Assembly (NCBI GenBank): GCA_030390025.1
Contig: CM059432.1
Coordinates: 60,328,001-60,392,000 of the forward strand
From: Squalus acanthias
Taxonomy: Eukaryota
DNA length: 64,000 bases
Reading direction: 5' to 3'
A model generated the notes under the pieces. That model worked only from the letters and a program-made list of their open reading frames with translations, ran no database searches and had not been told where the DNA came from. This document shows positions 1,335 to 63,317 of this stretch, piece after piece (the stretch's first letter is position 1; every line of letters begins with the position of its first letter). The position numbers and the translations under genes are program-made.

Positions 1335-1882
1335 AAAACTTTAATACGAGTGAAGACGCACAGAGAGACTTAGGGGTTCAGATACACAAATCTGAATCTC
1401 AAAAGAGTTTTTGGAAGGAGGCCAAGGCCATGGAAAAGATGCAGAGCAATTTAGTAAGATACTATCGATGCGAGGTTTCAGTTATTAGGAGACTGAAGAA
1501 CTGGGACTCTTTTCATTAGAGCAGTGAAGGATAAAAGATCTTATAGAGGTGTTCAAAATGATGAAGAGTTTTCATAAATTAAATTGGGAAAAACTATTTA
1601 TACTGGTCAGTGAATCATTAATTAGAACACATAAATTTAAGATGATCACCAAAAGAATGAAGGGAAAGCTTAGAGATTTTTTTTTACACAGGTGCTAGTT
1701 AAGACATGGAATTAGAATCAATAATAGCTTTTTAAAGGAAAATGTATGAACATTTGAAAAAGAAAAAAAATAAGAGGAAATGTGGAAAGAGATGGGGAAT
1801 AGGATTAAGTGTATCGCTCTTTCACAGAGCTGGCACTGGCATGATGAGCCAAATGACCTCCTTTTGTGTTGTAAAATTTTAT
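1335..1882 (+). mobile_element. Old CR1 3' fragment; its tail is the target of Harbinger H1
   Basis: Decayed C-terminal ORF2 and 3' UTR; tail appears to resume at 8985. Confidence 0.65.
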
Positions 1883-2280
1883 GGAGGAAAAATTCGGTAC
1901 CTTAGCGCCTCCTGTTAGCATCAGCCGCTAACAGTTATCTCCAGGAGCCTCAACATCAGACGGATCGTGGCATCAGTGAGTGTGCAACGCTCACTGGCTG
2001 CCCTATCTGCGAAATTGATTGTCGCCACCTACATTAGCGCCTGGAGTAAACAGCGACAGGGAGAGCTGGCATGAAGCAGCAGGAAGCCGGCTCCAGGGAC
2101 ATTATTTAAAGGGATCATCAGTAATGAGTCGCAGCTGTAGGTTAGTGGTATTTCAGTGCTTACTTGTCAGTTTCACATAGTCCAACAGCCTCATTCCGTA
2201 ATTTCAAGGTTATTTAGTATCAGGAGTGTTGTGGCAACTAAAAAGTAGCTACATTTATTTATTATAGTAGCCACACAGCC

Positions 2281-3143
2281 GATCCTTCCAGTTTGCAACA
2301 GGAGACATAGCAAACATCTCGCAGTTCGCCATCCATCGCTGCATCTGGGATGTCACAGAGGCTCTCTACAGTAGGAGAAGGGACTACATTTCCTTCCCCA
2401 TCACCAGAGAGAAGCAGGATGAACGCACATGTGGCTTAACCAGGATAGCAGAATTCCCCATGGTGCAGGGTACCACTGACTGCACCCACGTGGCTTTGCG
2501 GGCACCGCATAACAATCCTGAGATTTTCTGTAACCGCAAAGGCTACCACTCACTTAATGTCCAGTTGGTGTGTGACCACAGACAGCTAATCATCAATGTG
2601 AATGGCCGCTATCATGGTAGCAGCCACAATGCCTTTATCCTGTGCCAGACCGGTATGCCAGCACTCTTCTAACCACCACGACCAGCTCGTGGCTGGCTGC
2701 TCGGAGACAAGGGCTATCCGCTCTCCACCTGGCTCATGACTCCCTTCCGCAACCCCAACACTCCTGCCCAGCACTCATATAATGAGAGCCATGCTGCCAC
2801 CAGGAACATCATTGAACAGACCATCGGGGTGCGCAAGCAATGGTTCCACTGCCTTGACCGCTCAGGCGGAGCCTTCCAGTACTCGGCTGAGCGGGTGTCC
2901 CATTTCGTGGTGGTCTGCTGCATGTTCCACAAATTGGCCATCATGAGGGCCCAGCCCTTGCCAGCAGGGATTACGGGACCACCTCAGGAGGAGGAAGAGG
3001 GAGAGGAGGAGGAGGATGAGAAGGAAGAGGAGGATGAGGAGGACAACGAGGAGGAGGCACAGGAGCGAGGGAGGAGGCAGCCACTCAGTCGGCCTTCCAG
3101 AAGGGCGGTCCGTGACTGCCTCATCAGACTGCGGTTCGAATGA
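2281..3143 (+). pseudogene. H1 Harbinger DDE transposase (5'-deleted, internal stop)
   Basis: [37 protein letters not shown] motifs; acidic tail; TAA at 2670-2672. Confidence 0.9.
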
Positions 3144-3665
3144 ATTAAACCCCAGATCCCTGTTGCTCACCACATTCCCATCATTCCATCCCTGTCGCAG
3201 GCCATACCACAGCGCAAAGCTGAAATGAGACACACCACAAAAGAATCCAAACTGAATTAATAAATTTATCAACAATCAGTGAACACATATTTACAACAAC
3301 AAAATTAACTATTCACCCTTGTGCAATCCCTTAGTGCCTGTCGTTACTCTGCCTTTGCCTACTCTAGTGCTCCTACGAAGTGTTGGCCCAGTGGCTGCAG
3401 CACTGCTTGTGGAAGGCTGCTGAGTGTCCATGTGGGAGACTTCAGATGGCCTTGCAGGATGCCCTTGACCAGCTCTGGGCCTGGAAGGCCCGGCTGTAGA
3501 TTGCATCACCTCAGCATGGGCGGCAGCAGTCTGGGCTGGCTGGATGACAGGCAGCAACAAGAGCAATGGTGGAGTGGCAGTGGAGGGAGCAGGAATGCTG
3601 TCATCCTGAGAGAGTTATAGAGGTCATGATGTGGAGATGCCGGCGTTGGACTGGGGTGGACAAAA

Positions 3666-4060
3666 ATGAGAAGTCGCACAACACCAGGTTATAGTCCAAC
3701 AGATTTATTTAATTTTACAAGCTTTCGGAGCAGTTCGCTCCTTCGTCAGGTAAGTTTAGCAGTGAGAGAATCTCCCAGAATTCACAATTTAAACACAGAC
3801 AAAATATATTCAAATCTTTCCCACATCAAAGAGCATAGCCAAGACAATGAGATGTGTCCCAGGGGGTCCAACGTGTCAAACCACCTGCTGGCTGCATATC
3901 CTGTCAATCTGTGTAGGTTCTTGTGTTAGCCTTTTTTAAAAAAAAACACCTGGGAAGACCGGCCATGATGTCAAGTCACGTTCTGTATCGTGACATGAAC
4001 CCGATATCGCGATTGAGGCCCTCCTCATGAGTGCGGAACTTGGCTATCAGTTTCTGCTCT
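3666..4060 (-). repeat. Left inverted pLTR arm (395 bp)
   Basis: Reverse complement of 6634-7028; one difference noticed (T/A run). Confidence 0.95.
3715..3753 (-). ncRNA. Minimal hammerhead ribozyme motif (inverted copy)
   Basis: Reverse complement of 6941-6979. Confidence 0.85.
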
Positions 4061-6718
4061 CTTGACACCGCAAACTGCCGGCTCAAAGTGGAGAGAATCG
4101 CCAAGAAGATCGCGCATATTGACACAGACATCAAGTACCCGCAGAGATGCAAGAAAGCAGACAAGATTCCGAAAGGACTACAGATCACGAACCCACTCAA
4201 GTCGACATACAACACAGACTACGCTGAGAGACTTTGCCGTCGTACCTCTCGCACACTCCTCAACCATCTCGTACACCAGCTCTACAGCAGACGTCGCAAC
4301 CTCGAAACCAAGATAGAGTCCATGCTCTCAGCCTGTGCTCAGGACACAGCAGACCAGCTACGAGACACCGCCAAACAGACGAGGCAACGGAACTACGCTG
4401 CCTACATGCGCATCAAGAACAGGAAGCTTGAGAAACTCGGCGTAACCACCAGCTACAACCAAGCCTCCCCCGGTACCACGGTTGCAACCACAGGGAAGTC
4501 CATCGTCAACCTGTCGGACCACACCCTTCAACCAGACGAAATCGAAGTTCTCGCCCTAGGGCTCACGTTCTGCCCCACCACCAAAATGGACCCCATCGGT
4601 CTCGCGGCGGACACAGAGGAATTCATCAGGAGAATGAGGATCCGGGAATACTACCACAAATCCCAAGATGTCAGCAACATTCCTAATGGGACAATCAATG
4701 ATCCGGAACAGCAGGCAGTGCTACAACCGAGGAAGAAAGAGTCAAATTGGACCCCTCCGGAGGGTCGCAACCCTAAGCTTGACATGTATGCTCAAGCTGT
4801 CAGGAAATGCATCAACGCCAGATTCATCAGCCGTACTCACAAGACAGTCCAGAATGTCACCCGAGCACAACGCAACGCCATCCACGCACTCAAGACCAAC
4901 CGCAACATCGTCATCAAACCAGCGGACAAAGGAGGAGCCATCGTCATACAGAACAGAATGGACTATTGCAAAGAAGCATACCGACAACTGGACAACCAGG
5001 AACACTACAGACAGCTACCCGCAGATCCGACCAAAGAACACACCCACCAACTCAATAGACTGATCAAGACCTTCGATCCAGACCTTCAAAACATCCTACG
5101 CGCTCTCATCCCACGTACTCCCCGCGTAGGAGACTTTTACTGCCTCCCAAAGATACACAAAGCCAACACACCTGGACGTCCTATCGTATCAGGCAACGGA
5201 ACCCTGTGTGAGAACCTCTCTGGGTACGTCGAGGGCATCCTGAAACCCATCGTACAGGGAACCCCCAGCTTCTGTCGCGACACTACAGACTTCTTGCAGA
5301 AACTCAGCACCCATGGACCAGTTGAACCAGGAACACTCCTCGTCACAATGGACGTATCGACACTCTACACCAATATCCCCCACAATGACGGCATCGCTGC
5401 GACAGCCTTAGTACTCAACACCAACAACAGCCAATCTCCGGACGCCATCCTACAACTCATCCGCTTCATCCTTGACCACAATGTCTTCACCTTCGACAAC
5501 CATTTTTTTACCCAAACACACGGAACAGCCATGGGGACCAAATTCGCACCCCAATATGCCAATATCTTCATGCACAAGTTCGAGCAAGACTTCTTCGCTG
5601 CACAGGACCTCCAACCAACGCTGTACACCAGATACATCGACGACATCTTCTTCCTTTGGACCCACGGCGAAGGATCACTGAAAGGACTACACGATAGCAT
5701 CAACAGGTTCCATCCCACCATCAAACTCACCATGGACTACTCCTCAGAATCGGTTTCATTCTTGGACACACGAATCTCCATCAAAGACGGACGCCTCAGC
5801 ACTTCACTCTACCGCAAGCCCACGGACAACCTCACGATGCTCCACTTCTCCAGCTTCCACCCTAACCACGTTAAAGAAGCCATCCCCTATGGACAAGCCC
5901 TGCGAATACACAGGATCTGCTCAGACGAGGAGGAACGCGATGGACACCTACGGACACTGAAAGACGCCCTCGTAAGAACGGGATATGACGCTCGACTCGT
6001 CGATCGACAGTTCCGACGGGCCACAGCGAAAAACCGCATAGACCTCCTCAGAAGACGAACACGGGACACAACCAACAGAGTACCCTACGTCGTCCAGTAC
6101 TTCCCCGGAGCGGAAAAACTACGCCATGTTCTTTGCAGCCTTCAACATGTCATCGATGACGACGAACACCTTGCTAAGGCCATCCCCACGCCTCCACTAC
6201 TCGCCTTCAAGCAGCCGCCTAACCTCAAAAGTACCATCGTTCGCAGCAGATTACCCATCTTTCAGGCGAACAGCAACCAAGACACCACACAACCCTGCCA
6301 CGGCAACCTCTGCAAGACATGCCAAATCATGGACACAGATACCATCATCACACGTGAGGACACTACCCACCAGGTACACGGTACATACTCATGTGACTCG
6401 GCCAACGTTGTCTACCTGATACGTTGCAGTAAAGGATGCTCCAGAGCATGGTACATCGGCGAGACCATGCAGACACTGAGACAACGTATAAACGGACACC
6501 ACGCAACAATCGCCAGGCAGGAGGGTTGCCTCCCAGTCGGGGAACACTTCAGCAGCCAGGGGCATTCAGCCTCGGATATGCGGGTAAGCGTTCTCCAAGG
6601 CGGCCTTCGAAATACACGACAGCGCAAAATCATAGAGCAGAAACTGATAGCCAAGTTCCGCACTCATGAGGAGGGCCTCAATCGCGATATCGGGTTCATG
6701 TCACGATACAGAACGTGA
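4058..6718 (+). CDS. PLE reverse transcriptase + GIY-YIG endonuclease (open frame; native ATG displaced by inversion)
   Basis: IKPADKGG, YCLPKIHK, GRPIVS, DVSTLYTNIP, GTAMG, RYIDDIF, FLD, YRKPT; Cys-rich linker PCHGNLCKTC; NVVYLIRC...WYIGET; no stops. Confidence 0.93.
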   Translation, partial: SLDTANCRLKVERIAKKIAHIDTDIKYPQRCKKADKIPKGLQITNPLKSTYNTDYAERLCRRTSRTLLNHLVHQLYSRRRNLETKIESMLSACAQDTADQLRDTAKQTRQRNYAAYMRIKNRKLEKLGVTTSYNQASPGTTVATTGKSIVNLSDHTLQPDEIEVLALGLTFCPTTKMDPIGLAADTEEFIRRMRIREYYHKSQDVSNIPNGTINDPEQQAVLQPRKKESNWTPPEGRNPKLDMYAQAVRKCINARFISRTHKTVQNVTRAQRNAIHALKTNRNIVIKPADKGGAIVIQNRMDYCKEAYRQLDNQEHYRQLPADPTKEHTHQLNRLIKTFDPDLQNILRALIPRTPRVGDFYCLPKIHKANTPGRPIVSGNGTLCENLSGYVEGILKPIVQGTPSFCRDTTDFLQKLSTHGPVEPGTLLVTMDVSTLYTNIPHNDGIAATALVLNTNNSQSPDAILQLIRFILDHNVFTFDNHFFTQTHGTAMGTKFAPQYANIFMHKFEQDFFAAQDLQPTLYTRYIDDIFFLWTHGEGSLKGLHDSINRFHPTIKLTMDYSSESVSFLDTRISIKDGRLSTSLYRKPTDNLTMLHFSSFHPNHVKEAIPYGQALRIHRICSDEEERDGHLRTLKDALVRTGYDARLVDRQFRRATAKNRIDLLRRRTRDTTNRVPYVVQYFPGAEKLRHVLCSLQHVIDDDEHLAKAIPTPPLLAFKQPPNLKSTIVRSRLPIFQANSNQDTTQPCHGNLCKTCQIMDTDTIITREDTTHQVHGTYSCDSANVVYLIRCSKGCSRAWYIGETMQTLRQRINGHHATIARQEGCLPVGEHFSSQGHSASDMRVSVLQGGLRNTRQRKIIEQKLIAKFRTHEEGLNRDIGFMSRYRT

Positions 6719-7028
6719 CTTGACATCATGGCCGGTCTTCCCAGGTGTTTTTTTTTTAAAAAGGCTAACACAAGAACCTACACAGATTGACAGGATATGC
6801 AGCCAGCAGGTGGTTTGACACGTTGGACCCCCTGGGACACATCTCATTGTCTTGGCTATGCTCTTTGATGTGGGAAAGATTTGAATATATTTTGTCTGTG
6901 TTTAAATTGTGAATTCTGGGAGATTCTCTCACTGCTAAACTTACCTGACGAAGGAGCGAACTGCTCCGAAAGCTTGTAAAATTAAATAAATCTGTTGGAC
7001 TATAACCTGGTGTTGTGCGACTTCTCAT
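6634..7028 (+). repeat. Right pLTR arm (395 bp), AATAAA at 6985-6990
   Basis: Overlaps the ORF end, as is typical for PLE pLTRs; inverted copy at 3666-4060. Confidence 0.95.
6941..6979 (+). ncRNA. Minimal type I hammerhead ribozyme motif
   Basis: TTAC-CTGACGA-A-GGAGC-gaact-GCTCC-GAAA-GCTT-GTAA: stem I TTAC/GTAA, stem II GGAGC/GCTCC, palindromic loopless stem III. Confidence 0.85.
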
Positions 7029-8994
7029 CCTGAGAGAGGACAGCAGGTTCCTGCTCCACTGACCCACTGCCACTCTCCCGGGGCAGTACCTCAGCATCTC
7101 TATCAATCTGTTGGAGCACAGATTGCTGGCCTGCTGCGACACCATGAAGGCCCCAGTCGACAGTGGTAGACCCAGCCACGATGGCAGCAGTCAGAGCTTG
7201 CGTGGCATCAAGCTGAGACTGCATGAGAGCAGTCTGAGATTGAATGGCACCAACCATAGACTGCATTACAACACTAAGATGTTGCGTTGCTTCTGCCTAT
7301 GCTGCAATGGAAGCTGCCAGATCATCTATTACACGTGGTCTCTCTGGGAGTCTATCATCCTTTGCAGACTGTAAATGATGGGCTCCATGGTGTGTGCAGA
7401 GCCTTGTACAATGTTGAAGACGGACTCCTCCACGCACCTTATCATTGCCGAGAGGCTATCGGGGACCCTTGCCATTGCAGCTATCATCTCCACGTGCATG
7501 CCCATCACCCTTCTTCTAAACGCCACCCTATCGAGGTCCTCATCTGAGCCCTGTGCAGCAGAACTCACACGTGAACTCGCCCTCCGGGGAGCTGAACCCC
7601 GAGCTACCCTTTCCCCCTGGCCTTGCTGCAGCCCACTCGTCCCCAGTGCCTCACCCTGTGCAGATCCCGCTACTATACTAGCCTCTAAAGAATGAGTAGT
7701 GCCAGTATCTGAGTGGGTGCCTGCGGGTGAGACATGCAGTGACGTGGTGTGTTCTTCCTCCCCCTCTTCTCCCGCCTCGCTCTCTGCAGTGCCCTCAGGG
7801 ACAGGCTGCTCAGGTGCTTGCTCATTATCTGAAAGCATAAAGGCACAAGAGTCGAGTTAAGGTGAGGGGAGGGGACAGGAAGGGAGAAATGCATGCAAAG
7901 AGCATGATTAGCTGGAAAGTGCGAAACACTTGTGGGGTGAGGGGGAAGTGGGATGTGAGAAGGAGTAGGGATGAACGTACCGTTGTTGTCCCCAAGGGGG
8001 TCAATGTCGCCAGTGGCTACGGCACCCGCCATCTGGCACCCAATGATCTCCAGCACTCTATTTTCCAGTGCAGACAGTGGTTGGGTGTCGACTTGTTACC
8101 CCCCCACCCCCTCTTTATGCTCCTGCTCCCTCCTGTTGTGAGCCACCTTGGCCTGCAAGAGAAAGGAAAGTGTGTGAGTGAGTGTGGAGCAATATGTTTG
8201 GGTGATGTGCCTGCCATAGTTGAATAGCTGTCATTGTGTGCAAGGTGTGAGATGTGGGTGTGAGTGTTGGCTGGTAGAGATTGTTGGTGGGTGAGTGCTG
8301 GGGGTGTGGTGCTTTGGTCAGTGTGTGCAGACTGAGGTTCAGATGGTGGTATGTAGCATTTGTTGAAGCATTCACTCACCCTGACCAACTGAGTGAGGTC
8401 GTTAAATTTCTTCCTGCAATGTGTGTGGGTGCTGGGGACCACAGTGCTGCCCCAGATGTCCTCCGCTACCTCCCTCCACATGGTGCGGAAGACTTGCGGC
8501 GAGGGCCTCCTGCCACTTGCCAGGTAGAGCACCGCCCTCCGTCTCTCGACAGCGAACACCAATGCCTCCAATGCTTGATCGCTGAATCTGCGGGCTCTCG
8601 CCCTGGGGCGTGGATCTGCCATGAGCACAGCTGCTTCAGTCCTCCGGCTCCTTTTCCTTGACCTGCTGCTGCTTGCTGAGGAAGCTGCACAGCCAGCAAT
8701 GCTGAGAATGAGGGTCTGTAGCATCAATGAACTTTCCCGTTAAGAACTGGAAAAAGCCTGTGGCAATCATGACTTGCGATTAGAATGCACCTGATATTGG
8801 TCCACCCTTTGAGTGTAATGCCAATGAGCTTGGGCTTAAAGACTTGAATTAGTGCTCCAATCATTTCTTTGAGCAGTGAGCATGAATTTTGCGTGCAGTC
8901 TAAAGCATTAGCGCCTAGCGTTAATTCTCCAACTTTTCTAATTTTAGCACCCATTCCTGGGCTATAATGAATTTCTAGCCCTATGTTTTTATGC

Positions 8995-16367: not shown

Positions 16368-18101
16368 GGGCTAGAAATTCGTTATAGCCAAAAAAAGGGC
16401 AATGTTTAGACTAAAAATGGTTAAGTAGCGCCACCTGAAAATCATCTAAGCTGCAAGCAAAATTTGTCCTCACTCCTCATTAAAATGATTGCAGTCATGA
16501 TTCTTGACGTAAGAAAACTACTAGGCACTTGGTCTAAGCGTTAAACAAAGCTTTAATCAACTGTTTTTCAACATGGAGATCTGGTTGTGTCCTTCACTAG
16601 TTCCTGTTAAAGAATGTCCTGAGCAAGCTGGGCCCATGCCCGAGTATTTATACTCTCCCTGGACAGCGCCACCAGCAGGCCGCCCAGTATTATTTCCTAA
16701 GTCATTTCCACATGAATGACAAGATTCATGTCAATTCTCATCTAAAAATTCAAGCTCATTGGCATTCACTGAAAAGATCGACCAATATTGGGGGCAGTCT
16801 AAATGCAAGTAATGATTGCCACAGGCTATTTTCACTACTTAAAGGGGAGGTTCATTGATGCTGCAGAACCTCATTCTCAGCATTGTTGGTTGTGCGGCTG
16901 CCTCAACAACCATAAGAAGAAGGACAAGGAGAAGGAGCACTTATTTACAAATCCTGATGGTAGATCGCTGCCCCAGGGAGAGGTTTTCCGATGAAGCTTT
17001 GGAGGCATTGGTTTTAGCGGTGGAGAGAAGGCGGGTGGTCCTGCATCCGTCAACTGGCAGGAGGCCCTTGCCACACTCTGCCAGACTATGTGGAGGGAGG
17101 TGGCACACCACGTCGCGGGCAGCACTGTGGTCCCCAGGACCCACACACAGTGCATGAAGAAGTTTAACAAGCTCACACGAGTGGTCAGGGTGAGTGAAGG
17201 CTTCAACAAATGCAACATACCACTATCTGTACCACAAGCTTCAAACAATACTCAATGCACCACACCCACAGCATTCACCCACCAACAATCTCTACCTAAC
17301 AACACTCACACCTACATCTCACACCTTGCACACAATGACAGCTATTCAACTATGGCAGGCACAAGGGTCATTAGTTATTAGAGTTCAAGTGCTATGTGTG
17401 ATATGTTTATAAATAAATGTATTAATTGTGTTTGGAATATTTTGTGGTCTCTCTCATTTCACATTTGCACCCAGGAGGATGCTGTGATATGGTGTGAGAC
17501 AGGGACTGTATGATGGGGATGTGGTGAGTTACGGGGATCTGGGGTTTCATTCATGTGAATCAGACTCTGCTGAGCCAGTCACGGACAGCCCATCCAGAAG
17601 GCTGACTGTCTCGCTGCGTCCGCCCTCCCTCCTGTTCCTCCTCCTCCTCCTCGTCCTCCTCCTCCTCTGCCTCGTCGTCCTCCTGCGGTGGTCCCACAAT
17701 CCCTGCTGGCAAGGGCTGCGCCCTCATGATGGCCAAGTTGTGGAGCATGCAGCAGACCACCACAAAATGGGACACCCACTCCGGCGAGTCCTGGAGGGTT
17801 CCTCCTGAGCAGTCAAGGCCACATGCATGTTTGTCCTGCTTCTCTCTGGTGATCGGGAAGCCAATGTAGTCCCTTCTCCTGCTGTAGAGAGCTTCAGTGA
17901 CCTCCTGGATGCAGCGATGGATGGCAAATTGTGAGATGTTAGATATGTCTCCTGCTGCAGACTGGAAAGATCTGCTGGTGAAGAAATTGAGGGCTACGCT
18001 AACCTTGACTGCCACTGGGAGAGGCGTGGTCACCCTGGACTGAGGCTGGAAGTCTGGTTGCAGGAGGTGGCAGAGTTCTGTGACCACCACCTTGGTGAAG
18101 C
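16368..18101. mobile_element. Internally deleted Harbinger of the H1 family, opposite orientation, right end lost
   Basis: GGGCTAGAAATTCGTTATAGCC matches the reverse complement of the H1 right end; Myb exon 1 on + from 16957; transposase remnant on - 17530-18100. Confidence 0.8.
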
Positions 18102-45200: not shown

Positions 45201-47430
45201 CATCTATAGTGCCCAACACAGACTCGCAGAATAAAAACAAAATCTGCACCCCAAATGACTCAATCACCAAGCTTAGAGATTTCTAAATGACAAAATTTGA
45301 GAGTGCAGCTTTTACACTTCAGTTGCAGCTCCGAAGTCTGCAGCTTGCTGGTGTTCACGCCACACTTACCTGGTGTGTTGTCCGGACGTCATAAAACCCG
45401 ACCCGGAATTGTAAAATCAAACAAGACCCTGAAAATTGCTCACAAGTACCTGTTAATTGGCAGTTAATTGCCTTTAATCTGTTTCCCGCCGCTAGGTGCC
45501 GGGTCCATTCGCAAATTGGGGACCCGACACTTGGGAAGGTTGTGTGGAGGCGGGATGACGGCAGGTTCCGAACCCGCCATCAATCAAAATGAATTTAACC
45601 TCTGACCCGCATCCAAACCCGCCCTCTGAGCATTGGCAAATTCGCGGCCTTTGTGTCTGTCTTCACGGAAGAAGACACAAAAACTTCTCGGAATTAGTGG
45701 AGAACCAAGGGTCTAGCGAGAATGAGGAACTGAAAGAAGTTAGTATTCGTAAAAAAGTAGTACAGGAGAAAATAATGGGACTGAAAGCCGATAAATCCCC
45801 TGGACCTGATGGCCTACATCCTAGGGTTTTGAAGGAGGTGGCTACAGAGATAGTGGATCCATTGGTTGTCATCTTCCAAAATTCCATAGATTCTAGAATG
45901 GTTCCCGCGGATTGGAAGGTAGCAAATGTAACCCCACTATTTAAGAAAGGAGGGAGAGAGAAAACAGGGAACTACAGACCAGTTAGCCTGACATCAGTAG
46001 TAGGGAAAATGCTAGAATCTATTATTAAGGACGTGGTAACAGGGCACTTAGAAAATAATAAAAGGATTGGGCAGAGTCAACACGGATTTATGAAAGGGAA
46101 ATCATGTTTGGCAAATCTGTTAGAATTTTTTGAGGTTGTAACTAGCAGAATCGATAAGGGAGAACCAGTGGATGTGGTGTATTTGGATTTTCAGAAGGCA
46201 TTCGATAAGGTGCCACACAAGAGGTTATTAAACAAAATTAGGGTTCAAGGGATTGGGGGTAATATACTAGCATGGATTGAGGATTGGTTAACGGACAGAA
46301 AACAGAGAGTAGGAATAAACGGGTCATTTTCAGGTTGGCAGGCTGTAACTAGTGGGGTACCGCAAGGATCAGTGCTTGGGCCTCAGCTATTCACAATCTA
46401 CTTCAATGATTTGGATGAGGGGACCAAATGTAATATATCCAAGTTTGCTGATGATACAAAGCTGAGTGGGAATGTAAGTTGTGAGGAGGATGCAAGGAGG
46501 CTTCAAGGGGATATAGACAGGCTAAGTGAGTGGGCAAGAACATGGCAAATGGAATATAATGTGGAGAAATGTGAAGTTATCCACTTTGGTAGGAAAAATA
46601 GAAAGGCAGAGTATGTTTTAAATGCTGAGAGATTGGGAAATGTTGGTGTTCAGAGGGACCTGGGTGTCCTTGTACACGAATCACTGAAAGTTAACATGCA
46701 GGTACGGCAAGCAATTAGGAAAGCAAATGGTATGTTGGCCTTCATTACAAGAGGATTTGAGTATAAGAGTAAAGACGTCTTACTGCAATTATATAAGGCC
46801 CTGGTGAGACCACACCTGGAGTATTGTGTACAGTTTTGGGCTCCTTACCTAAGGAAGGATATACTTGCCATAGAGGGAGTGCAACGAAGGTGCACCACAC
46901 CAGACTGGTTCCTCAAATGCAACACATTTGCTGTTGTAGGTATGGGATAACATTTTGCACATCTACTGACCTTGTGACTGTCCTGTGAGGAGAGATTGAG
47001 TAGACTAGGCCTATATTCTCTAGAGTTTAGAAGAATGAGAGGTGATCTCATTGAAACATACAAAATTCTTACAGGGCTTGACAGGTAGATGCAGGGAGGA
47101 TGTTGCCCCTGGCTGGGGAATCTAGAACCAGGGGTCATAGTCTCAGAATAAGGGGTTGATCATTTAGGACTGAGATGAGGAAACATTTATTCACTCAGAA
47201 GGTGGTGAATCTTTGGAATTCTGTACCCCAGAGGGCTGTGGAGGCTCAGTCATTGAGTATATTCAAGGTAGAGAGCGATAGATTTTTGAATGTTAAGGGA
47301 ATCAAGGGATATGGGAATAGTGCAGAAAAGTGGAGTTGAGGTAGAAGATTAGCCATGATCTTATTGAATGGCAGAGCAGGCTCGAAGGGCCAAATGGTCT
47401 ACTCCTGCTCTTATTTCTTATGTTCTTATG
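42250..47430 (+). mobile_element. CR1 with most of ORF2 (endonuclease + RT), split by Harbinger H6
   Basis: YRPP, SDHN, KSPGPDG, YRPVSL, LDFQKAFD, GVPQGS, FADD; rejoins LNKYF|VSVFT across H6; TTCTTATG tail. Confidence 0.92.
43098..45649. mobile_element. Harbinger H6, Myb gene only (+, 43366-45022), no transposase
   Basis: Ends GGCCGAGATTTTG / CAAATTCGCGGCC; TSD TTT; PPQQTKAAWLQIAEEV, EKRAHNKRERRRTGGG. Confidence 0.88.
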
Positions 47431-47983
47431 TACTCCCATTTGATTGTCCCTTCCCCTTTACATTTAACTTAAACACCATTTTGCTCTACCAGTGGTGCCA
47501 TCCTTAGATCCACCCAAATTTTCAACTAGAGTTGCGAATAACTATGCAAATGAGGTTAGACTGGAAAATTGCCATTTGAGATTCAGGTAGGCGTTTAAGC
47601 AGTGCAAATAAAATTAGAACTGATTTACACCTAAAAATAAAAATCAGCCCACCATCATTTTTGTATTCTGTTTTTGGGCCACAGAGACTGCCACTTCGCA
47701 TTCAAATTCCCACCCCAAGCTTCAGAAATGATTGAGGTTGCCGACATCACTCATGCATCCTGCAGTGACTCCACTGATTTTGTCAGGAACCATTGGGCTC
47801 GATTTTAATAGCCCTCTGGAGGCAGGTTTGGAGGCTGGTCTGTCGCGAAAATCGGAAAAATATGGCTTCAGACACCTAACCCGCCTCCATCCCGCCACCA
47901 CCCGATTATCGTGAGTGTCTGTTTAGCCGCTCCCAAACTGAGCCGACTGGAACCGGTGGGACAGGTAGTTAAGGCAGTTAACA

Positions 47984-48148
47984 CGATCGCAAAATACTGC
48001 GGATGCTGGAAATCCGAAATAACAACAGAAAACGCTGCAAAAACTCAGCAGGCCAGGCAGCATCCGTGGAGAGAGAAACAGAGTTAACGTTTCAGGTCGA
48101 AGACCTTTCGTCAGAACCGCTGAGTTTTTCCAGCGTTTTCTGTTGTTA
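47984..48148. mobile_element. 165-bp PLE-derived fold-back insertion
   Basis: TSD TTAAGGCAGTTAACA (47969-47983, 48149-48163); 32-bp inverted arms 48018-48049 / 48119-48150. Confidence 0.88.
48083..48117 (-). ncRNA. Minimal hammerhead ribozyme motif
   Basis: GTT-CTGACGA-A-AGGTC-ttc-GACCT-GAAA-CGTT-AAC on the minus strand. Confidence 0.85.
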
Positions 48149-51100
48149 TTAAGGCAGTTAACAGCCTGTTAACTGCCTTGCTAATCCTATTTTTATAGTT
48201 GTTTCCCATTTTCATGCTTCTGGCTCCTGTTTCCTGACTTGTCAGAAATAGACCAGTTTCAAGAAGACGAGTTGCTGAAGGACATGATTTGTATGCATTG
48301 GTGGAGCACTTTAAAAACGCCCCTGAAACATGGCTGACATTCAAATGCAACAAATTTGCTGTTGTCGGTATGGGATAACAATTTGCACATCTACTGAGCT
48401 TGTGACTGTTCAAGCTGACACCCATCTGCAGTGTGACCTGAATGGAATAATTTCAGGCCACTTTGACTGTGCGTTTGCAAGCTTGTTGCCTCAAATGAAA
48501 TCTATAGCAAGGGGATGGGAAAACTTTATGCCTTCTCATCCTGGTCCTCATAATCGGAGAAGTAGCAGCCGCATGGCTCAGCGCAGATCTTCCTGGGAAG
48601 AGGAGGAGGAGGAGGACGAGAGGCAAGGCCTTGCATGCCCTGTTGTGACCAATGCAGCATTCCTCCAGTTCACTGCTGCCCGTCAAGCAGGGTATGCACA
48701 CTGCCATGCCACATTAGTATAAGCTTACTCTTCAACCATAGGTGGCTACCATATGGCTCTGTAATTGCAGCCGACATTTGTCCAACGTCATACATCATCT
48801 CTGCTATACCCTGTTATTTCCTATCACTTTCACCATCAGCTTTACAAAAGCAAGTCGCCCTGAGCCCTCAATGCGCTTTTGCCATTTCCCAGAACACATA
48901 GGCCACACAATCAACTGTTTGCCATAATTTTTCTTTTACACATGACAAAAGGATAATAAACCAACAACAGTCAGAAAAAAAAACAGAACACCCAAGTGAG
49001 TCTCCTTGTGACTATAGGTGCTTAATCTTTCTTTTACCCGTGCTTCTACATTGTGCTTCCCCTGTGGCTTTAGCAGATGTAGAGGCACCTTGCTGAATAG
49101 GATGCTGCGCCTGCTTTGACGCCTTTGGCGGGCGTCCTCTGGGTTTGGGAGCCTGGGAGGGCTCTTCAACTGTCTGCTCTTCCTGCGGCTGTGCAGGGGC
49201 TGAAACGGCTATCTCAGTTGTCTCCGCACAGTGCGTCTCTGACCGAGGGCTCCGCAGTGGCAAGGTCGTGTGAGTGCTTTGAGAGGAGTCCACACTTCTT
49301 TCTGTCCTGCCAACAACATCCCTCTCATGGGTCAGCCGCAGCTCAGTGCTGGCAAGTGGCTGGAGAGCACCTTGCTGCACATCAGGGGGACCATGAGGAC
49401 CCGTATCTGCACTCGCAGTCCTCAGCACAAGGACGTCCATGAAGCTCTGGTCTCTCTGCTCAATAGCTGCCCATCTCTCCTCCAGAGATGACATTCTATT
49501 TTGAACAGTCACCATGTTTTCCTGACTCTGGCGACTTATTTCCTCCAAGGCGGTAGCCATCCTTTCCACTGAGGTAGCCAGCCTTTCCACGGAGGTTGCC
49601 ATCCTATCCATGGTGGTGCCTATGTAGAGATGGACTCCTCCATTCTATCCACACTCGCACTAACCCTGGAGGCAAACCCTTCCAGAGACACCTGCACTTG
49701 TTCCTGTATTTCCCGAGACATTCTTTTTCTGGATGGCCCCAGAGGCACAGCGTCTGCATGCAGCTCAGCAGAGCTAAGAGATTGCTGTGAACTCCATTGA
49801 GGACTCTCCACTGCTGTCGCTGTCTCTTCCATCTGCTGATGCTCACTTGTGCGCTGTGATAGACCAGGTGGCAACACTATGCTAACTCGCGAGGGCCCCA
49901 CCGAGGTGTGCGTTGCTGTGCTGGTGCTGGGTGCGCTGAGTCCTGGTGACGCTGCTCTTTCAGAGGCTTCAGGTTCCTTTGAGGAGCTATCCGGCTCTTC
50001 GTCCTGGATCGTGGGGAGGGGGGCGCTCGATTGTCCTGTGGGAGAGTAAAGGCATGATTTAGACATCTGATATTGATGTGGCAAACACATCCTTTTGAGC
50101 AGATGATACAAAGCAATTCTCTATGAACATCATATGCCATTGCAGTCTGAGAGGCATGCAACTCTATTGTCACCAGCTTCCTCTAGTGTGCCCGTCTCTC
50201 CATTGCCCACTTCCAGGTCCTCGCCACCTCCAACAATCTCGTATGCAGCCTCCTCAGCACTGGTCAATGTGGTTTGGGTAGGTGTTCCTCCTCCAGTCAG
50301 TGCTCTTTCCCTCTTATTGTGGGCTATCTTTTCCTGCAAGGAGGGACACAAGCGGAGTTTCAACCACAGTGATGGAGTGAGTGTGAAGAATCCCTACCAT
50401 AGAAGCTTTGAGGGAGACGAAGATGGGGTAAGGTGCCAAGAGGAAGCTAGCTCCCTGTGTGTTGTTAGTTGTTGTCACTGCACGACAGTGAGAGCGAGTC
50501 TAAGGGGTGCATAGACAGGATGCTGAAGTGATTCAGTGCAGAGACAGAGATGGATAGGTAAGGGTGCAAGGGAAGTAAGGGTAAGGTGGGATTTGAAGGA
50601 GGAGGCTTACAATGCAGAGTGCTGGTGATGAGAAGAGAAGGCAAGCAGATCGGAGGCAAGTGTGATGGGATACTCACTTTTGATGTTCACACAAGATCAT
50701 TAAACCTTTTTCGGCACTGGATCCATGAGTGTGAACATATGGATCTTGCACTGACCTCCTCAGCAATGCGCAGCCAGGCTGCCTTGGTCTGCTGAGGAGG
50801 CTTCCTCCGGCCATCAGGAGGGAAGAGAATCGCCCTGCGCCCTCTGACAGCATCCACAAGAGCATGGAGGGAGTCATCATTAAAACGAGGAGCTGCCTTG
50901 CCTCTGGAAGTAGTCATTGCGTATAAATCAATATCAATGAGTCCAGGAATCCACAAGAGAAAGGCTCAGGCTGAATGGCAGCTTTAAAAGCAGCTGCTAT
51001 GATGACGTCATCAGAGGCGGCCAGCCGACCCGATCGCACTCATTGGACCGGCCAGCGCGTCCCAATGAAATCAACAAGCTCATTGAATCAAAATCGGACA

Positions 51101-51553
51101 TCAGCAGCTGATCCCGCTGGAAGTGACTCCGGAACCCGCCCACCACGCAACCCGACTCCAACCCGCCTCGGGAATTAAAATCGAGCCCATTGCTTCTGAC
51201 TAGTCTGGGAACCAATTCAGAGCCACCAAGCTTGGAAAACTCACTACCATTAATTGTTTGAGATATGCATGCTGAAACACAGCTTTGTGTTCCCTAAAGT
51301 ATCAAGTTTACTTAATTGGATGTGAATCAGGCCATTACCAGCTGCTGTCATTGTGACCAATCAAGGGAAACTATTCCAAGAATTTCCCATGGGAAGAGGA
51401 CTCTGGAAGGGTTATTAAATTGCTCTACATTTCCTTTGGGATGAAGATTCTCCTGACATCCAACTCCATATTAACAAATTCATCATTACTCAGAAACTCA
51501 GAATTAAAAAGATTGACCAATTTGGCCTGCTGATGAATCGACAATGTACATTA

Positions 51554-55017: not shown

Positions 55018-55046
55018 ATTAAAAATGGGGAATAGCAGTCTCTTAC

Positions 55047-55261: not shown

Positions 55262-56850
55262 TAGATAGAATCATAGAATCATGGAATGATACAGCACAGA
55301 AGGAGGCCATTCAGCCCATCTTCCCTGTGCCAGCCCTTTGAAAGAGCTATCCAATTGGTCCCACTCCCGTGCCCTTTCCCCATAGCCCTGCAAATTTTCC
55401 CCCTTCAAATATTTATCCAATTCCCTTTTGAAAGTTGTTATTGAATCTGCTTTCACCACCCTTTCAGGCAGTGAATTCCAGATTATAACAACTCGCTGTG
55501 CAATTTTTTTTTCCTCATGTCGCCTATGGTTCTTTTACCAATTACCTTAAATCTGTGTCCTCTGGTTACCGATCCTTCTGCCATTGGAAACAGTTTCTCC
55601 TTATTTACTCTATCAAAACCGTTCATAATTTTGAACACCTCTATCAAATCTTCCCTTAACCTTCTCTGCTCTAAGATGAACAACCCCAGCTTCTCTAGTC
55701 TGTCCACATAACTGAAGTCTTGCATTCCTGATACGATTCTAGTAAATTGCCTTTGCACCCTCTCTAAGGCCTTGACATCCTTCCTAAAGTGTGGTGCCCA
55801 GAATTGAACACAATGGCCGGAAATTTTCTGAGATAAGAGCGGGTGGGTTGGAGGTGTGGGGGGAAGTGAAAGTTGCAAAAATGTGAACCTCGACCCCAAC
55901 CCGTCTCCAACCTGCCCACTTTCACCTTTCGCTCAGGTGGGACGGGAGTGGGGTGCAGGCTGCCAACCCACTGCCAGGAGGCGGGTTGGCAATTTACATA
56001 TGATAATGAGGCCTGAAGTCTCTACTTTAACCTGCTTTACAAGTTTTACTGCAGACAGCCGGGGATCCCGGGGCTCGGGACTCCCGGTGGTTGCAACGAG
56101 GCAGCTTCAGCCTCGGGGAGTAATGCTTGTGGGTCAGGAGGAACAGGAGTGCTTCCTCCCGGCCCCCCAAGCTCCCCCACCATCAACCCACACCTCGCGG
56201 AGTTGGGGATCCGACCTCCCAGGGATCAGACCTCCCCCCGCACCACCCCCGGGCCTGGAACACAGCCCCCCCCCCCCACCCCCCCACCCCGTGAATCGCG
56301 ATTCAGCCCAGGGGTCGGGGATCGGGGATCGGACCCCCCCCAGGGATCGCAACTCCTCCTCCACCTCGGGGACAGGGATCGGACCCCTCCCCGGGCTTGG
56401 ATCCCCCCACCCCCACCATCCTGGGCCCAGCACTTACTTGTTACTGCGGCCTCCTCCTCCAAGTTCCCCGCACGACTACAAGCCAGCGAGTCAATCAGGT
56501 TGACATCCGGGAGGGGAACCCACCACTGATGTCGCACGCGGTGGAGTTAAAACTCCACAGCATGCCGGGAAACCCAATATTCCGGGTTTCCTGCCGTCTC
56601 CCAGGTCCCCAAGCACCGTGCAGGTGGGACCCAGGAAAATCGAACCCAATACTTCAGCTGGGATCTAACCCGTGTTTTATAAAGGTTCAGCATGACTTCC
56701 TTGCTTTTGTACCCTATGCCTCTATTTATAAAGCCAAGGATCCCGAATGCTTTTTCAACAACCTGATCAACTTGTCCTGTCACCTTCAAATACTTGTGTA
56801 CGTACACCCCCGGGATCTATGTTCCAGCAGCCCCTTTGAAATTGTACCAT
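55262..56850 (-). mobile_element. CR1 3' fragment split by a MITE
   Basis: CVQFWAPHFRKDV, TRGHRFK; rejoins ACACAAT|ACTTCAG. Confidence 0.85.
55815..56647. mobile_element. 833-bp GC-rich Harbinger-type MITE
   Basis: Ends GGCCGGAAATTTTCTG / CAGGAAAATCGAACCC; TSD AAT; interrupts the CR1 precisely. Confidence 0.8.
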
Positions 56851-58636: not shown

Positions 58637-61600
58637 GGGCTGGAATTTGATACTGGGGCGGGCTGGGGTTGTGTAATCCGCATTTCGTGTTAGCCACCCG
58701 ATTCTAAATCGATATGGGAGAATAATGCCATTTTAACCTAATTGGCCAATTGAGTTCCAATGTGTGGGAACCCATGGCCAGTGAGTTTTTCCAGTCTGAA
58801 AGTCGCTTCCGATGACGTCATCATTGCTGCTGCATTTAAGGTCTGCAACAAGCCTTCCTTCTTCTGCAGACTGCCAAGCTTTTGCCCTTGCATGTTAGAG
58901 GCACCTGCAGGAAGAATGGCCAGCCAGAGACCTAGGTCTGCACCCCGCTTTGATGACGTTGCCCTGCAGGCTTTAGTAGAGGGAGCAAGAGCAAACAAAG
59001 AGGTGCTCTTCCCTTCTTCAGGGAGGAAGAAGCCTCCCCAGCAAACCAAGGCTGTGTGGATCCAGGTGGCAGAGGTCAACTCTTTGTCAATAACCCGCAG
59101 AACCTGGCTTCAGTGCAGGAAGAGGCTTCATGACCTTCTGTGCACTGGAAAAGTGAGTATGAATTTTCCATCACCCTCAATCTGATCCCCATTGCCTCTC
59201 CTCACCAGCACTCAGCTTTCGCAATCTCTTCCTCCGTATTCCACTTGACACTGACATCCATGCACCCTTACCCATTCCCTCTCTCTCTATGGTCACATTC
59301 ACCTAACTATTCGACTATGCAGCCCTCACACTCCCTATCACTGTGATGCAATTACAACTTACAACACACAGGGAGGGCCCTTGGTCTTGCCACCACACTC
59401 CATCTTTGTCTCCTGCTAAGCATCTATGCTATCGATTCTCTACACTCACTCCTTCATTCTCACTCAAACTCCACTTGTCTCCCTCATTGCAGGAAAAGAG
59501 AGCTCACAATAAGAGGGAAAGAGCGAGGACAGGAGGAGGCCTCAGTAGCCCAGCACACCACCTGGGAGGAGGCGGTCCTGGAGATGGTGGGAGTGGAGGA
59601 AGATTCCCAAGTGGGGGACGGACAGACGGGCGCATCACAGCAAGCTGGTGACAGAATAGTTTACCATCTCTCTCAATGACATTACATGAGTCGCTGATAA
59701 TGATTCTGAAACTCTAACAGATGGACTTATGATCATCTGCAATATGCAATGTGCATGTAACTTTGGCCTCACATCTCTGACTCTTTCCTTTATTCCCCCC
59801 CAGGACCATCGCAAGCACCCATCCCCACTATCCAGGAGGAAGAGCATGAGCCTCAAGACTCCTCAGAGGAAGCTGCAACCTCTGAGGGCGCAGCGTCAGC
59901 AGAATTCAGCGCACCCAGCACCAGCGCAGACACTCACACCTCGGAGGGAACATCGCGAGATAGAGTAGTGTTGTCACCTGGTGTACCACAGCTCACAAGT
60001 GAGCATCAGCAGATAGTGGAGACAGGGACAGCAGTGGAGAGTCCTAGTCAGACGGCGCAGGACTCTCCCAGCTCGGCTCAGCTGCATGTCGACCCTCTGC
60101 CTCTGGGTCCATCCATAAGATCAGCGGTGCTGGAACTCCATGAACAGATGCAGGAGTCTCTGGCAGGTTTTGTCTCCAGGGTCGCTGTGAGTGTGGAGCG
60201 AATGGAGGAGTCCATTGCGAACATGAGCAGAGCCTTTGTGGAGGCACTGGCGCATGAACGCATCACCATGGAAAGGATGGCAACCTCCGTGGAAATGATG
60301 GCACCTCCGTCGAAAGGATGGCTACAGTAGACGAGAGGATGGCTGCGGCCATGAGGAGATAAGTCGCCAGAGTGAAGAAAACATGGTGAGTGTTCGGAAT
60401 AGAATGACATCTCTGGAGGAGCGATGGTCATCTATTGAACACAGAAACCAGACCTTCATGGAAGTCCTTCTGAGTAGAACTTCCAGTGCAGATACGGGTC
60501 CCCATAGCCCCCCTGATGTGCAGCAAGGTGCTCTCAATCCACTTGGAAGCGCTGAGATGGACCTGACCCATGAGAGGGATGTTGTTTGCAGAGAACAAGG
60601 AAGTGGGGGCTCCTCTCCAAGCGTTCATACTTCCATGCCACTGACAAGTCCTCAGTCAAAGCCCCACCAAAGTCCGCGCCCAACTGAGATCAGCGTCTCA
60701 ACCCCTGCACAGCCGCAGGAGCAGCAGACTGTTGGTGAGCCCTCACAGGTTCGCAACCCCAGAGGACGCCCGCCAAAGGTGTCGAGACAGGAGCAGCAAG
60801 AAAGTGAGCAAGGGGCCTCCACATCTGCTGAAGCCACAGGGGAAGCACCACGTAGGAGCACGCGTAAGAGAAAGATAGTGCACAAATAGTCACAAGGGTA
60901 GTCATTTGGGCTGAATTTTTATGATTATGTTAAAAATCCTTCAGATGATTACTGTAATAAAAAATCTGATGGCTACTGCTGAAGTTGTGGCGTGTGTCAT
61001 TTCGCGAATGGGACTTCCAACATTGAGGGCTTAGGATTACTTGCAATTTTCAGTTTATTGTGTTCAAATTACTAGGGAATCCGGCTGGATTTATGGCCAT
61101 TGTCGTTGCTCAGGCTAGGAAGCAGCGAGGCAAAAGTGCTTGGATTAGGCTGATCGGGCACTTCCATGCGCTGTTCTCGCGTACTGCTGCTGCTGGTTGA
61201 TGGGCCTCTGCAAGATGTTTGTTTTCGCTCTCCTCCTCCTCCTCCTCATCTGAGGAGGGTATGTGACGAGCCACTTGGTCCTCAGGAATCTGCAAGCCAC
61301 GAAACTGTGCCATGTTGTGAAGTGCACAGCAAACCACGACGATTCTGGAGACCCTGGCTGCTGAGTACTTCAGGGTTCCACCTGATCTATCCAGGCATCT
61401 GAAGCGCATCTTCAGCAAACCGATGGTTTGCTCGATTATGGCTCTGGTGGACATGTGGCTGGAGTTGTAGCTCTCCTCAGCTTCGTTGGATGGGCTCCTC
61501 AACGGCGTCATTAGCCACGTCTTCAGGGGATAGCCCTTGTCTCCAAGTAGCCATCCGTGAAGTTGGTCTGGCGGACTGAATAGCAGAGGCACACTAGACT

Positions 61601-62870
61601 GGTGCAGTATGAAGGAGTCATGGCAACTGCCAGGGTACTTGGCACAAACATGCAAAATTTCCTTCTTGTGGTCACACACCAGCTGAACGTTAAGGGAGTG
61701 GAAGCCCTTGCGGTTGACAAAAATACCTGGATTGCGACGCCCTGCACCCTTGGAAAGCGTGCCAGATTAGCTAATCCAACCGCACGCGCCGTGACACTTG
61801 CTTGATCCTTGGTGAAATGGATGTGATTGTGCGCGATGGCAAAGAGGGCATCGGTTACCTGCGTGATGCAAGTGTGTGCGGCCGCCTGGGAGATGCCGCT
61901 GATGCCTGCTGCTGATCCCTGGAATGAGCCTGAGGCAAAAAGGTTGAGTGCGGTGGTGACTTTGACGGCCACTGGTAAGGGTTGTCCACCTAGTCCTCTG
62001 GGCTCCAGGTCTTGTTGCAGCATTGCGCAGATGTCACCCACTACCTCTCACGAAAGTCGGAGCCGCCTTTGGCACTGCTGCTCAGACATGTTGAGGTAGC
62101 TGACCCTGTATCTGTAGACCCTGTTTGGGGGGTATCTCCTGCGCCGACGGGCTTCCATGCGCTGGCCCCTTCTGGCCTGTGTAGCTTCAGGTGGGTGAGC
62201 AGCAGCTTGGCGCTCCTGTTGTTGCTGCTGCTGTTGGTGCTGCTGCTGTTGGTGCTGCTGTTGTTCATGGTTCTGCTGGTGCCGCGGCTGGTCTTCGTCT
62301 TCATCTGATGTCCAGAAGGGAAGGAAATAAATGGCTCCCATGCTTCTGGTATATGCCTCAGTTGAGGAAGCGCTCAGTCAAGGTGGCGAGAGGGGTTTCC
62401 CAGGAGGTCGCACTGGAGATGGGTGTCAGGCTCCAAACTTCCACAGCTGTGGTTATGCCTTCTAAAAGTTCCCCCAGACCTGAGACAGCAAAGTCCTGCC
62501 ACCTGCAAATGATGGCTGATCAAATCTCCTATTTAATGGTTGAGCTGCAGCTGATAGTCAGCAATCCAATTGTGCTACCGCCAGGTTTCACCGTCGTGTT
62601 TCAGAACAGGCGTGCTTCACGTGGGAAAAGGGTTAAAATCACAAAGGCCTATCAAAATGGCATTATAGAGGCAATTTAGTGCTTGTTAAGGGCCTTAATG
62701 GCCTATCCCGCCTCTTGGAGGCGGGACGGAGACGGGACCAGTAGACACGATTTAATGAAAATTGCTTGGAGGCGGGATGGAGGCGGGTTGGGCCCGCCCA
62801 CCAGTTTTTGCAATTTTAACCACCCACACGCCTCCAATCCCGCCTCAACGGCCCGATGAAATTCGAGCCC
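58637..62870. mobile_element. Full-length Harbinger H9 (Myb on + 58916-60889; transposase on - 62341 to about 61110), H3-like
   Basis: TIRs GGGCTGGAATTTGAT / ATGAAATTCGAGCCC; TSD GTT/ATT; both genes frameshifted. Confidence 0.9.
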
Positions 62871-63317
62871 ATTGTCTCTTCTAGCTGTTCTCACTTCCCA
62901 AATGATAAAGTATTTACCAAACCCTTTTTTCATGTGAAGATAGTATTTCTTTAAGTAAAAATATGAATATTACAGTCCATCCACAGTTAGACTGTAAATA
63001 ACTTTATACACTCCACCTTTAAACAACAAGATGTACTGTGTGTAATGTTGCATACAGTTCAAAAGACAATGATGCATAGTCTGGACCATTTAGCTCAAGA
63101 TGCTTTAGTAGGTATTTTGGATTTTAAAAGACAGCTATTGCTTACTTTCAAGTCACGTGGCTTTAGAGTTGACTTATTAGATCTGATTTTATGAAATTAT
63201 GCTCCTGGAATGGTTCCTCAGATACCGGGAGCCCATATCAGGAAATCAAGGGTGCGCTACCCACCAGAAGTGCACATTCAGAAAATCAACATGAGTAAAA
63301 TCAAATGAAAAACTTAC

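What the first reader, a model, noticed from the sequence alone, without database searches (positions are those of the whole stretch)
1875..62878. Palindromic target consensus RANNY-NNN-RNNTY shared by nine Harbinger insertions with variable TSDs
Reconstructed empty sites (seen): aattt-TAT-gtttt, gattt-CCA-gcatc, aactt-TCT-gtgtt, tactt-CTA-atctt, gagat-GCC-atcat, aatac-TTT-gtgtc, gaacc-ATT-gcttc, aacac-AAT-acttc, gaaat-GTT-gtctc. Position -4 is A in 9/9, -1 pyrimidine 9/9, +1 purine 9/9, +4 T 8/9, +5 pyrimidine 9/9, -5 purine 8/9, while the duplicated 3 bp vary. PIF/Harbingers are usually described with TWA (or CWG) TSDs; the zebrafish Harbinger3_DR target AAACACCWGGTCTTT fits these flanks. 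Inference: these families read the flanks rather than the TSD. Caveat: three TSDs have one mismatch and ends were set by eye.
Basis: partly seen in the sequence, partly recalled or inferred. Interest (0 to 1): 0.72.

Follow-up and report, generated by a model that had tools for sequence, protein, structure and literature searches.

The report
Shark Harbinger palindromic landing site
Cut-and-paste jumping genes in this likely shark genome sit at a mirror-symmetric DNA motif whose two six-base arms match the landing site known for a zebrafish relative, while the three duplicated middle bases vary and are A/T-rich, so the transposition machinery likely reads mainly the arms: a variant of a known preference.

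Summary
Confirmed. All nine elements have the stated ends. 3-bp TSDs match at 24 of 27 bases and no other register gives a 3-bp TSD. Flanks: A at -4 in 17 of 18 half-sites, pyrimidine at -1 in 18 of 18; 0 of 20,000 random nine-site sets reach this. Other copies of one family, from four public runs (13 consensus rows, 319 contigs), give the fuller arm A-R-A-S-A-C, essentially the arms of the published zebrafish Harbinger3_DR target. The core differs: no TWA or CWG among 10 TSDs. It is not ignored, though: 21 of 26 agreeing bases are A/T (p=0.009). Corrections: the elements are two transposase lineages plus two unassigned, not nine families; E9's empty site is unverified; one unpaired end (16368) misses at -4. 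Extended palindromic targets are known for PIF/Harbinger and for TIR elements generally. What I found in no paper searched is conserved arms around a loose core. The scan noted this at least three times on other DNA of this genome. New variant of a known kind; which protein reads the arms is inferred.

The parts
85..234 (.).
   Evidence: PWM scan; ends and five empty-site homologues; fit
1883..8981 (.). E1, lineage A Harbinger (transposase fragments +, Myb-like ORF -), TSD TAT/TAT, in a LINE tail; holds a nested retroelement at about 3627-7028
16368..18101 (.). Truncated copy of the E1 family with one end only; its flank has G at -4 (the one clear miss); a LINE fragment stops right at this end, so the flank may not be the original target
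22085..26324 (.). E2, lineage B Harbinger, 4240 bp, stop-free 370-aa DDE_Tnp_4 frame at 22572-23684; TSD CAA/CCA
34655..38818 (.). E3, lineage A Harbinger, 4164 bp, DDE_Tnp_4 at 35177-36253 (+), Myb_DNA-bind_5 at 37822-38604 (-); TSD TCT/TCT
40478..40968 (.). E4, 491-bp non-autonomous element with ends like E3; TSD CTA/CTA; misses R at -5
40989..47650 (.). E5, unassigned non-coding element split by a LINE that itself holds E6; TSD GCC/ACC; misses T at +4; pairing rests on TIR likeness only
43098..45649 (.). E6, lineage B deletion derivative with Myb-like remnant; TSD TTT/TTT; inside a LINE
47795..51188 (.). E7, lineage B derivative with perfect 14-bp TIRs; TSD ATT/ATT; its left end was the probe for flanks of other copies
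55815..56647 (.). E8, 833-bp non-autonomous lineage B element; TSD AAT/AAT; inside a LINE
58637..62870 (.). E9, lineage B Harbinger, 4234 bp, 79% identical to E2 over 4084 bp; Myb (+) and frameshifted DDE_Tnp_4 (-); TSD GTT/ATT; empty site not verified

Best explanation
These are PIF/Harbinger cut-and-paste transposons that sit in a palindromic site of about 15 bp, made of two mirrored arms (about A-R-A-S-A-C) around a variable, A/T-rich 3-bp duplication, and the preference likely comes from a symmetric transposase dimer that reads the arms and needs the centre mainly to be bendable. Shown: the ends, the 3-bp duplication, the arm motif in the window and in other copies, the A/T bias of the core, and that the arms are host DNA present before insertion. 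Inferred: that the choice is made at integration, that each half of a two-fold symmetric complex contacts one arm (strongest at -4, -1 and -5), that staggered cuts 3 bp apart make the TSD, and that the transposase rather than the Myb-like protein does the reading (about 60:40). The arms are probably the same code that zebrafish Harbinger3_DR uses; only the core preference (CWG there) differs.
For: Window statistics and nulls: 8 of 10 sites fit a motif found at 0.5% of host positions. A-priori test with the published zebrafish target (sequence as printed in a passage of PMC3016246): arms 62 of 108 vs null 31.4 +/- 4.6; core 2 of 18. Independent copies: of 24 loose-end rows shown, 13 lie at the TIR boundary of E7's left end (319 contigs, four runs, three coded organisms). 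Their majority letters give A at -4 in 13 of 13, R at -5 and -6 in 13 of 13, A at -2 in 12 of 13, C or G at -3 in 13 of 13 (10 C, 3 G), and C at -1 in all 11 rows where that place was free. 156 of those 319 contigs are in rows whose alignment runs into the T next to the TIR, which neither TWA nor CWG allows. Both lineages show the motif: -4 A and -1 Y in 6 of 6 (A) and 10 of 10 (B) half-sites, although their Myb-like domains are only 39-43% identical against 58% for the transposases. The LINE-hosted sites lie at different places of the LINE, so the motif is not one inherited host sequence.
Against: Only 10 paired sites, all old (TIR pairs differ at 0-7 of 14 bases). The unpaired end at 16368 has G at -4. 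E9 may be a composite site; E4, E5 and E7 lack an empty-site homologue. The read-based rows are column majorities, not frequencies; runs share old insertions and are not independent; 130 rows were not shown; only one end of one family was probed; X1-X5 may be the source organism's own samples. In 2 of the 4 rows whose last TSD base cannot be T, the column majority spells TWA, so TWA may be a common TSD even though it is 0 of 10 here. Transposase-versus-Myb is argued only from relative conservation. No solved structure of the family was found by sequence.
Confidence: 0.8

Rival explanations
1. The motif is real but the Myb-like protein, not the transposase, reads the arms.
For: The Myb-like ORF is the known DNA-binding subunit and the transposase lacks an obvious binding domain (passage of PMC2836001); that paper leaves open which protein sets the insertion preference.
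Against: The Myb-like domains of the two lineages are 39-43% identical and their subterminal sequences differ, yet the target arms agree; the documented role of ORF1 is binding the element's ends.
Confidence: 0.3
2. The core was originally fixed (TWA or CWG) and has been scrambled by mutation or by bases carried over from the donor site.
For: 4 of 10 TSD pairs carry a mismatch; column majorities spell TWA in 2 of 4 non-T rows; mPing is proposed to be cut within its TSDs (passages of PMC4561436).
Against: 6 of 10 pairs are identical and none is TWA or CWG; empty-site homologues carry the same or a near core (E2, E8, M10, E6, E3). Two of the four mismatches are G to A right behind the TIR's terminal C, the signature of ordinary CpG decay. 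A CWG core forms no CpG with these ends, so it would not decay that way. For mPing the donor TSD did not steer target choice (45 of 46 insertions in TTA/TAA).
Confidence: 0.08
3. The pattern is an artefact of picking ends by eye or of inserting into a few abundant host repeats.
For: Ends were hand-set; 7 of 10 sites lie in high-copy repeats; the motif was derived from the same nine sites; one unused end misses.
Confidence: 0.04
4. The preference is for DNA shape (a flexible A/T-rich centre with purine runs on both sides) with little base-specific contact.
For: A/T-rich core; purine run at -6..-4; A/T-richness of target motifs is read as a flexibility signal in Drosophila elements (passage of PMC3276498).
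Against: -4 is one specific base (A in 19 of 20 half-sites) and the read consensus has C at -1 and mostly C at -3 in an A/T-rich background; this looks like base readout. Shape probably adds to it in the core.
Confidence: 0.15

Closest known systems
Harbinger3_DR / Harbinger3N_DR of zebrafish (listed as NuwaI-2_DRer, TSD CWG, TIR 12, 4204 bp, in Table S5 of PMC4482050; Sinzelle et al. 2008 seen only as cited)
   Same: DDE_Tnp_4 + Myb_DNA-bind_5, about 4.2 kb, short TIRs, 3-bp TSD, palindromic target of about 15 bp; its arms AAACAC and GTCTTT match the consensus of the E7 family (A-R-A-S-A-C) including the C/G choice at -3.
   Different: Core CWG is absent (0 of 10; C..G matched at 2 of 18); core here is variable and A/T-rich; -5 is mostly G rather than A; -1 tolerates T in the window (9 of 18); read consensus also has a pyrimidine at -7 (13 of 13 rows).
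Plant PIF / mPing-Ping-Pong (passages of PMC2836001, PMC4561436)
   Same: Two-protein system, 3-bp TSD, preference that extends beyond the TSD.
   Different: 9-bp preference built around a nearly fixed TTA/TAA core; here the core is the loose part and the arms reach -6.
NuwaII group of the PHIS scheme (PMC4482050)
   Same: Conserved base on each side of the TSD (C and G there; Y and R here), TIRs starting GG, Myb second ORF.
   Different: TNA core not seen (0 of 10); no longer arm described in the text read.
Palindromic target-site motifs of Drosophila TIR elements (passages of PMC3276498)
   Same: Motif palindromic, extends beyond the TSD, most informative positions not always inside the TSD, A/T-rich.
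   Different: Those extend at most 3 bp beyond the TSD; here 6.

Membership tests
PIF/Harbinger superfamily, broad sense (PHIS) | DDE_Tnp_4 transposase | tested here: met
   E1, E2, E3, E9 and the old copy at 15266 all above Pfam's cut-off (5 of 5 transposase frames tested)
PIF/Harbinger superfamily, broad sense (PHIS) | Second ORF with Myb/SANT domain | tested here: met
   Myb_DNA-bind_5 above cut-off in 3 of 5 frames tested (E3, E9, 11543), just below in E1, no hit in E6 (E6 aligns to the others at 39-49%)
PIF/Harbinger superfamily, broad sense (PHIS) | Short TIRs and a 3-bp TSD | tested here: met
PIF/Harbinger superfamily, broad sense (PHIS) | Target preference extending beyond the TSD | tested here: met
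   feature as stated in PMC2836001
PIF/Harbinger superfamily, broad sense (PHIS) | Both proteins needed for transposition; precise excision | not testable with these tools
   needs a transposition assay
PIF/Harbinger group in the narrow sense of Han et al. 2015 | TWA TSD | tested here: not met
   0 of 9, M10 also not; no shifted boundary restores it; 156 of 319 contigs in rows with T next to the TIR
NuwaI (Harbinger3_DR group) | CWG TSD | tested here: not met
   0 of 9, M10 also not
NuwaI (Harbinger3_DR group) | TIRs usually start GGG; two ORFs; about 4.2-4.5 kb | tested here: met
   12 of 18 ends start GGG, 18 of 18 have G at position 2; E2, E3, E9 are 4164-4240 bp
NuwaI (Harbinger3_DR group) | Transposase falls in the Nuwa clade | not tested
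   no labelled Nuwa or PIF reference transposases came from any call; homologues all carry a generic HARBI1-type name or none
NuwaII | C|TNA|G target | tested here: not met
   TNA 0 of 9
Pangu | ANT TSD and second ORF without known motif | tested here: not met
   ANT in 3 of 9 only; second ORF has a Myb domain

The most novel reading that the evidence does not exclude
Vertebrate Harbingers have kept one six-base target-arm code (A-R-A-S-A-C) from sharks to zebrafish while the duplicated core drifted freely between CWG and loose A/T-rich triplets. Arm reading and core choice would then be separable functions of the transpososome, and the TSD, on which the PHIS groups are defined, would be the wrong character for classifying them.
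Probability: 0.45. Interest if true: 0.55.

Novelty: new variant of a known kind. Interest (0 to 1): 0.35.

Why it matters
The PHIS groups are defined by TSD sequence (TWA, CWG, ANT, TNA; PMC4482050), and annotation that demands such a TSD would miss or misfile these elements. A conserved arm with a loose core gives a better diagnostic and a natural comparison (shark against zebrafish proteins) for the open question of which subunit picks the target. It also explains local hot spots such as LINE tails that happen to spell the motif. Two surveys that looked only at the elephant shark reported Harbingers absent from sharks or cartilaginous fish; here they fill much of a 64-kb window. The motif is loose (1 site per about 200 bp), so its value as a targeting tool is modest.

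Tried and rejected
No whole genome is held, so the genome-wide logo could not be built. First lay of contigs on all of E7: loose-end rows were swamped by internal positions and a nested repeat; no joint across E7 in the related organisms among the 15 of 198 joints shown, and contigs of X8 and X10 run from flank into element at both ends, so E7 seems present there too and gave no empty allele. PWM scan for TIRs: 65 hits at score 8 or more against 41-47 in three shuffles, so low-scoring hits are noise; 16 of the 18 known ends were among them. High-scoring hits at 4556, 5551, 18677, 34866, 55403 and 60908 were set aside as internal to retroelements or to E3/E9. Ends of two old elements (about 11150-16000 and 51550-54330) could not be fixed and were left out of all counts. 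In one search I first used wrong right-end coordinates for M10 (232); corrected to 234. CpG decay as the source of T at -1 was considered: it can explain 3 of the 9 T cases only. PDB sequence search found no Harbinger transposase structure (two hits at E 0.26-0.33 on an acidic run are noise). No fold or complex job was run. Sinzelle et al. 2008 is not held; Kapitonov and Jurka 2004 and Repbase entries were not seen and may already record shark Harbinger targets. Figure logos of Han et al. 2015 were not seen; its supplements were searched by five terms only.

Full report
Setting. The window is repeat-dense vertebrate DNA. The stop-free transposase frame of E2 has 461 relatives at E <= 1e-30, and the first 33 of the 120 listed are named from sharks and rays (best 68% identity), so the host is likely an elasmobranch. 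No whole genome is held. Pfam gives DDE_Tnp_4 for 5 of 5 transposase frames tested and Myb_DNA-bind_5 above cut-off for 3 of 5 second ORFs: these are PIF/Harbinger elements. The labels CR1 and Penelope for the host repeats are recalled from their layout; calls show only an RVT_1 domain.

The observation. All nine elements were located with their ends. TSD copies agree at 24 of 27 bases, 6 of 9 perfectly. In a register test over lengths 2-9 and shifts of -2 to +2, a 3-bp duplication works only at these ends, and no boundary pair within 3 bases gives an identical TWA. Written as 18 half-sites, the flanks have A at -4 in 17, a pyrimidine at -1 in 18, a purine at -5 in 17 and at -6 in 15; positions -8 to -15 carry nothing notable. 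None of 20,000 random nine-site sets reached the observed information, summed or maximal, so deriving the motif after the fact does not explain it.

The flanks are host DNA. Other copies of the host repeats in the window span the junction with a single core for E2 (3 homologues), E3 (1), E6 (2), E8 (3) and E1 (1). The LINE-hosted sites are at different places of the LINE. E4, E5 and E7 have no such control. E9 is doubtful: its left flank is the end of a repeat whose normal continuation matches the right flank for only 4 of the next 6 bases and then stops.

Held-out ends in the window. A TIR weight-matrix scan (65 hits at score 8 or more, 41-47 expected from shuffles) gave a tenth element, M10 at 85-234, with TSD ATG/ATA, five empty-site homologues and a full fit. 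It also gave an unpaired possible end at 47715 that fits, and an unpaired true end at 16368 that has G at -4. A LINE fragment ends right at 16368, so that flank may be secondary, but I count it as a miss: 3 of 4 held-out half-sites fit. Two older elements had no definable ends and were left out.

Copies elsewhere. Four public contig sets (two of the organism that best holds the window's DNA, two of related organisms) were laid on the left end of E7. Of 24 loose-end rows shown (130 not shown), 13 lie at the TIR boundary and stand for 319 contigs (86 in X1 alone). Read by eye, their majority letters give A at -4 in 13 of 13 rows, a purine at -5 (11 G, 2 A) and -6 (12 A, 1 G) in 13 of 13, A at -2 in 12 of 13, C (10) or G (3) at -3, C at -1 in all 11 rows where it was free, and a pyrimidine at -7 in 13 of 13. 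The duplicated bases in these rows are almost all A or T. Rows whose alignment runs into the T next to the TIR hold 156 of the 319 contigs, which a strict TWA or CWG would not allow; in the other four rows the last base is A and two of them spell TWA by column majority. Limits: majorities, not frequencies; runs share old insertions; one end of one family.

Comparison with the zebrafish target. A review passage gives AAACACCWGGTCTTT for Harbinger3_DR (PMC3016246). As an a-priori test, the nine sites match its twelve arm positions at 62 of 108 (best orientation per site; null 31.4 +/- 4.6, maximum 51 in 20,000) and its C..G core at 2 of 18 (null mean 3.9). Its two arms, read from outside in, are AAACAC and AAAGAC, which is the read-based consensus except that -5 is mostly G here.

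The core. TWA 0, CWG 0, TNA 0 and ANT 3 of 9. It is not free: 21 of 26 agreeing positions over ten elements are A/T against 57% in host DNA (p=0.009). Two of the four TSD mismatches are G to A right behind the TIR's terminal C, as CpG decay would give. CpG decay can explain only 3 of 9 T's at -1.

How many families. Pairwise comparison gives two lineages: A (E1, E3, E4 by its ends, two broken copies) and B (E2, E6, E7, E9, and E8 by one end), with E5 and M10 unassigned. Their transposases are 58% identical and their Myb-like domains 39-43%. Both lineages show -4 A and -1 Y in every half-site (6 of 6 and 10 of 10).

Mechanism. Most likely a two-fold symmetric transposase complex contacts one arm per half, cuts the two strands 3 bp apart, and needs the centre mainly to be deformable, hence a loose A/T-rich core. 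Symmetry and spacing are shown; that a dimer produces them follows the general palindromic-target model (passages of PMC3276498); that the transposase and not the Myb-like protein reads the arms is a weak inference from relative conservation. No structure of the family was found in the PDB by sequence.

What is known. PIF/Harbinger elements have an extended preference, 9 bp in plants and 15 bp in vertebrates (passages of PMC2836001). Drosophila TIR and LTR motifs are palindromic, reach beyond the TSD, and their best positions are not always inside it. Han et al. 2015 (PMC4482050; parts 1-3 of 4 read, supplements searched by five terms, figures not seen) define groups by TSD and list Harbinger3_DR as NuwaI with CWG. 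The elements here pass every broad-family test I could run but fail the TSD test of each of the four 3-bp groups; clade placement was not tested. Six literature searches and passages of PMC9179366, PMC4561436 and one 2026 preprint showed no report of Harbinger3-like arms around a variable core, or of shark Harbinger targets. The primary zebrafish papers and Repbase were not seen and could hold this.

Earlier notes of this scan describe the same motif in at least three other windows of this genome. They are unchecked notes and I do not count them as evidence; one pointed me to the NuwaI-2_DRer row, which I confirmed.

Verdict. A real, well-supported target preference; a new variant (loose A/T-rich core, conserved arms) of a known property of vertebrate Harbingers. 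Interest 0.35.

Noticed in passing
window 3627-7028: A retroelement with an unbroken 895-aa reverse-transcriptase frame (4031-6718) and 395-bp inverted ends that are 99.7% alike sits inside E1; it looks very young. Penelope-like by recalled layout.
   Followed up: no
window 40969-40988: E4 and E5 are only 20 bp apart; the right arm of one site and the left arm of the other share this spacer.
   Followed up: no
window 1860-1882 and 8982-9000; row X5 47810: The short tandem tail of a LINE spells the motif: E1 sits in such a tail, and one two-contig row shows another copy in one.
   Followed up: partly
window 47651 and 62871: The TIR's terminal C and a TSD starting with G form a CpG; both such right-hand copies (E5, E9) read A instead, which likely explains two of four TSD mismatches.
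   Followed up: yes
window 52428-53173: A decayed transposase only about 38-52% identical to E3's in three pieces, a third and older Harbinger lineage; ends not resolved.
   Followed up: partly
window 47715 (minus strand): TIR-like end 65 bp beyond E5 whose flank fits the motif; no partner end found.
   Followed up: partly
window 47969-48163: A short fold-back unit nested in E7 with very high depth in all four runs; another note of this scan covers it.
   Followed up: no
window 47795-51188: Contigs of two related organisms (X8, X10) run from flank into element at both ends of E7, so this insertion likely predates their split.
   Followed up: partly
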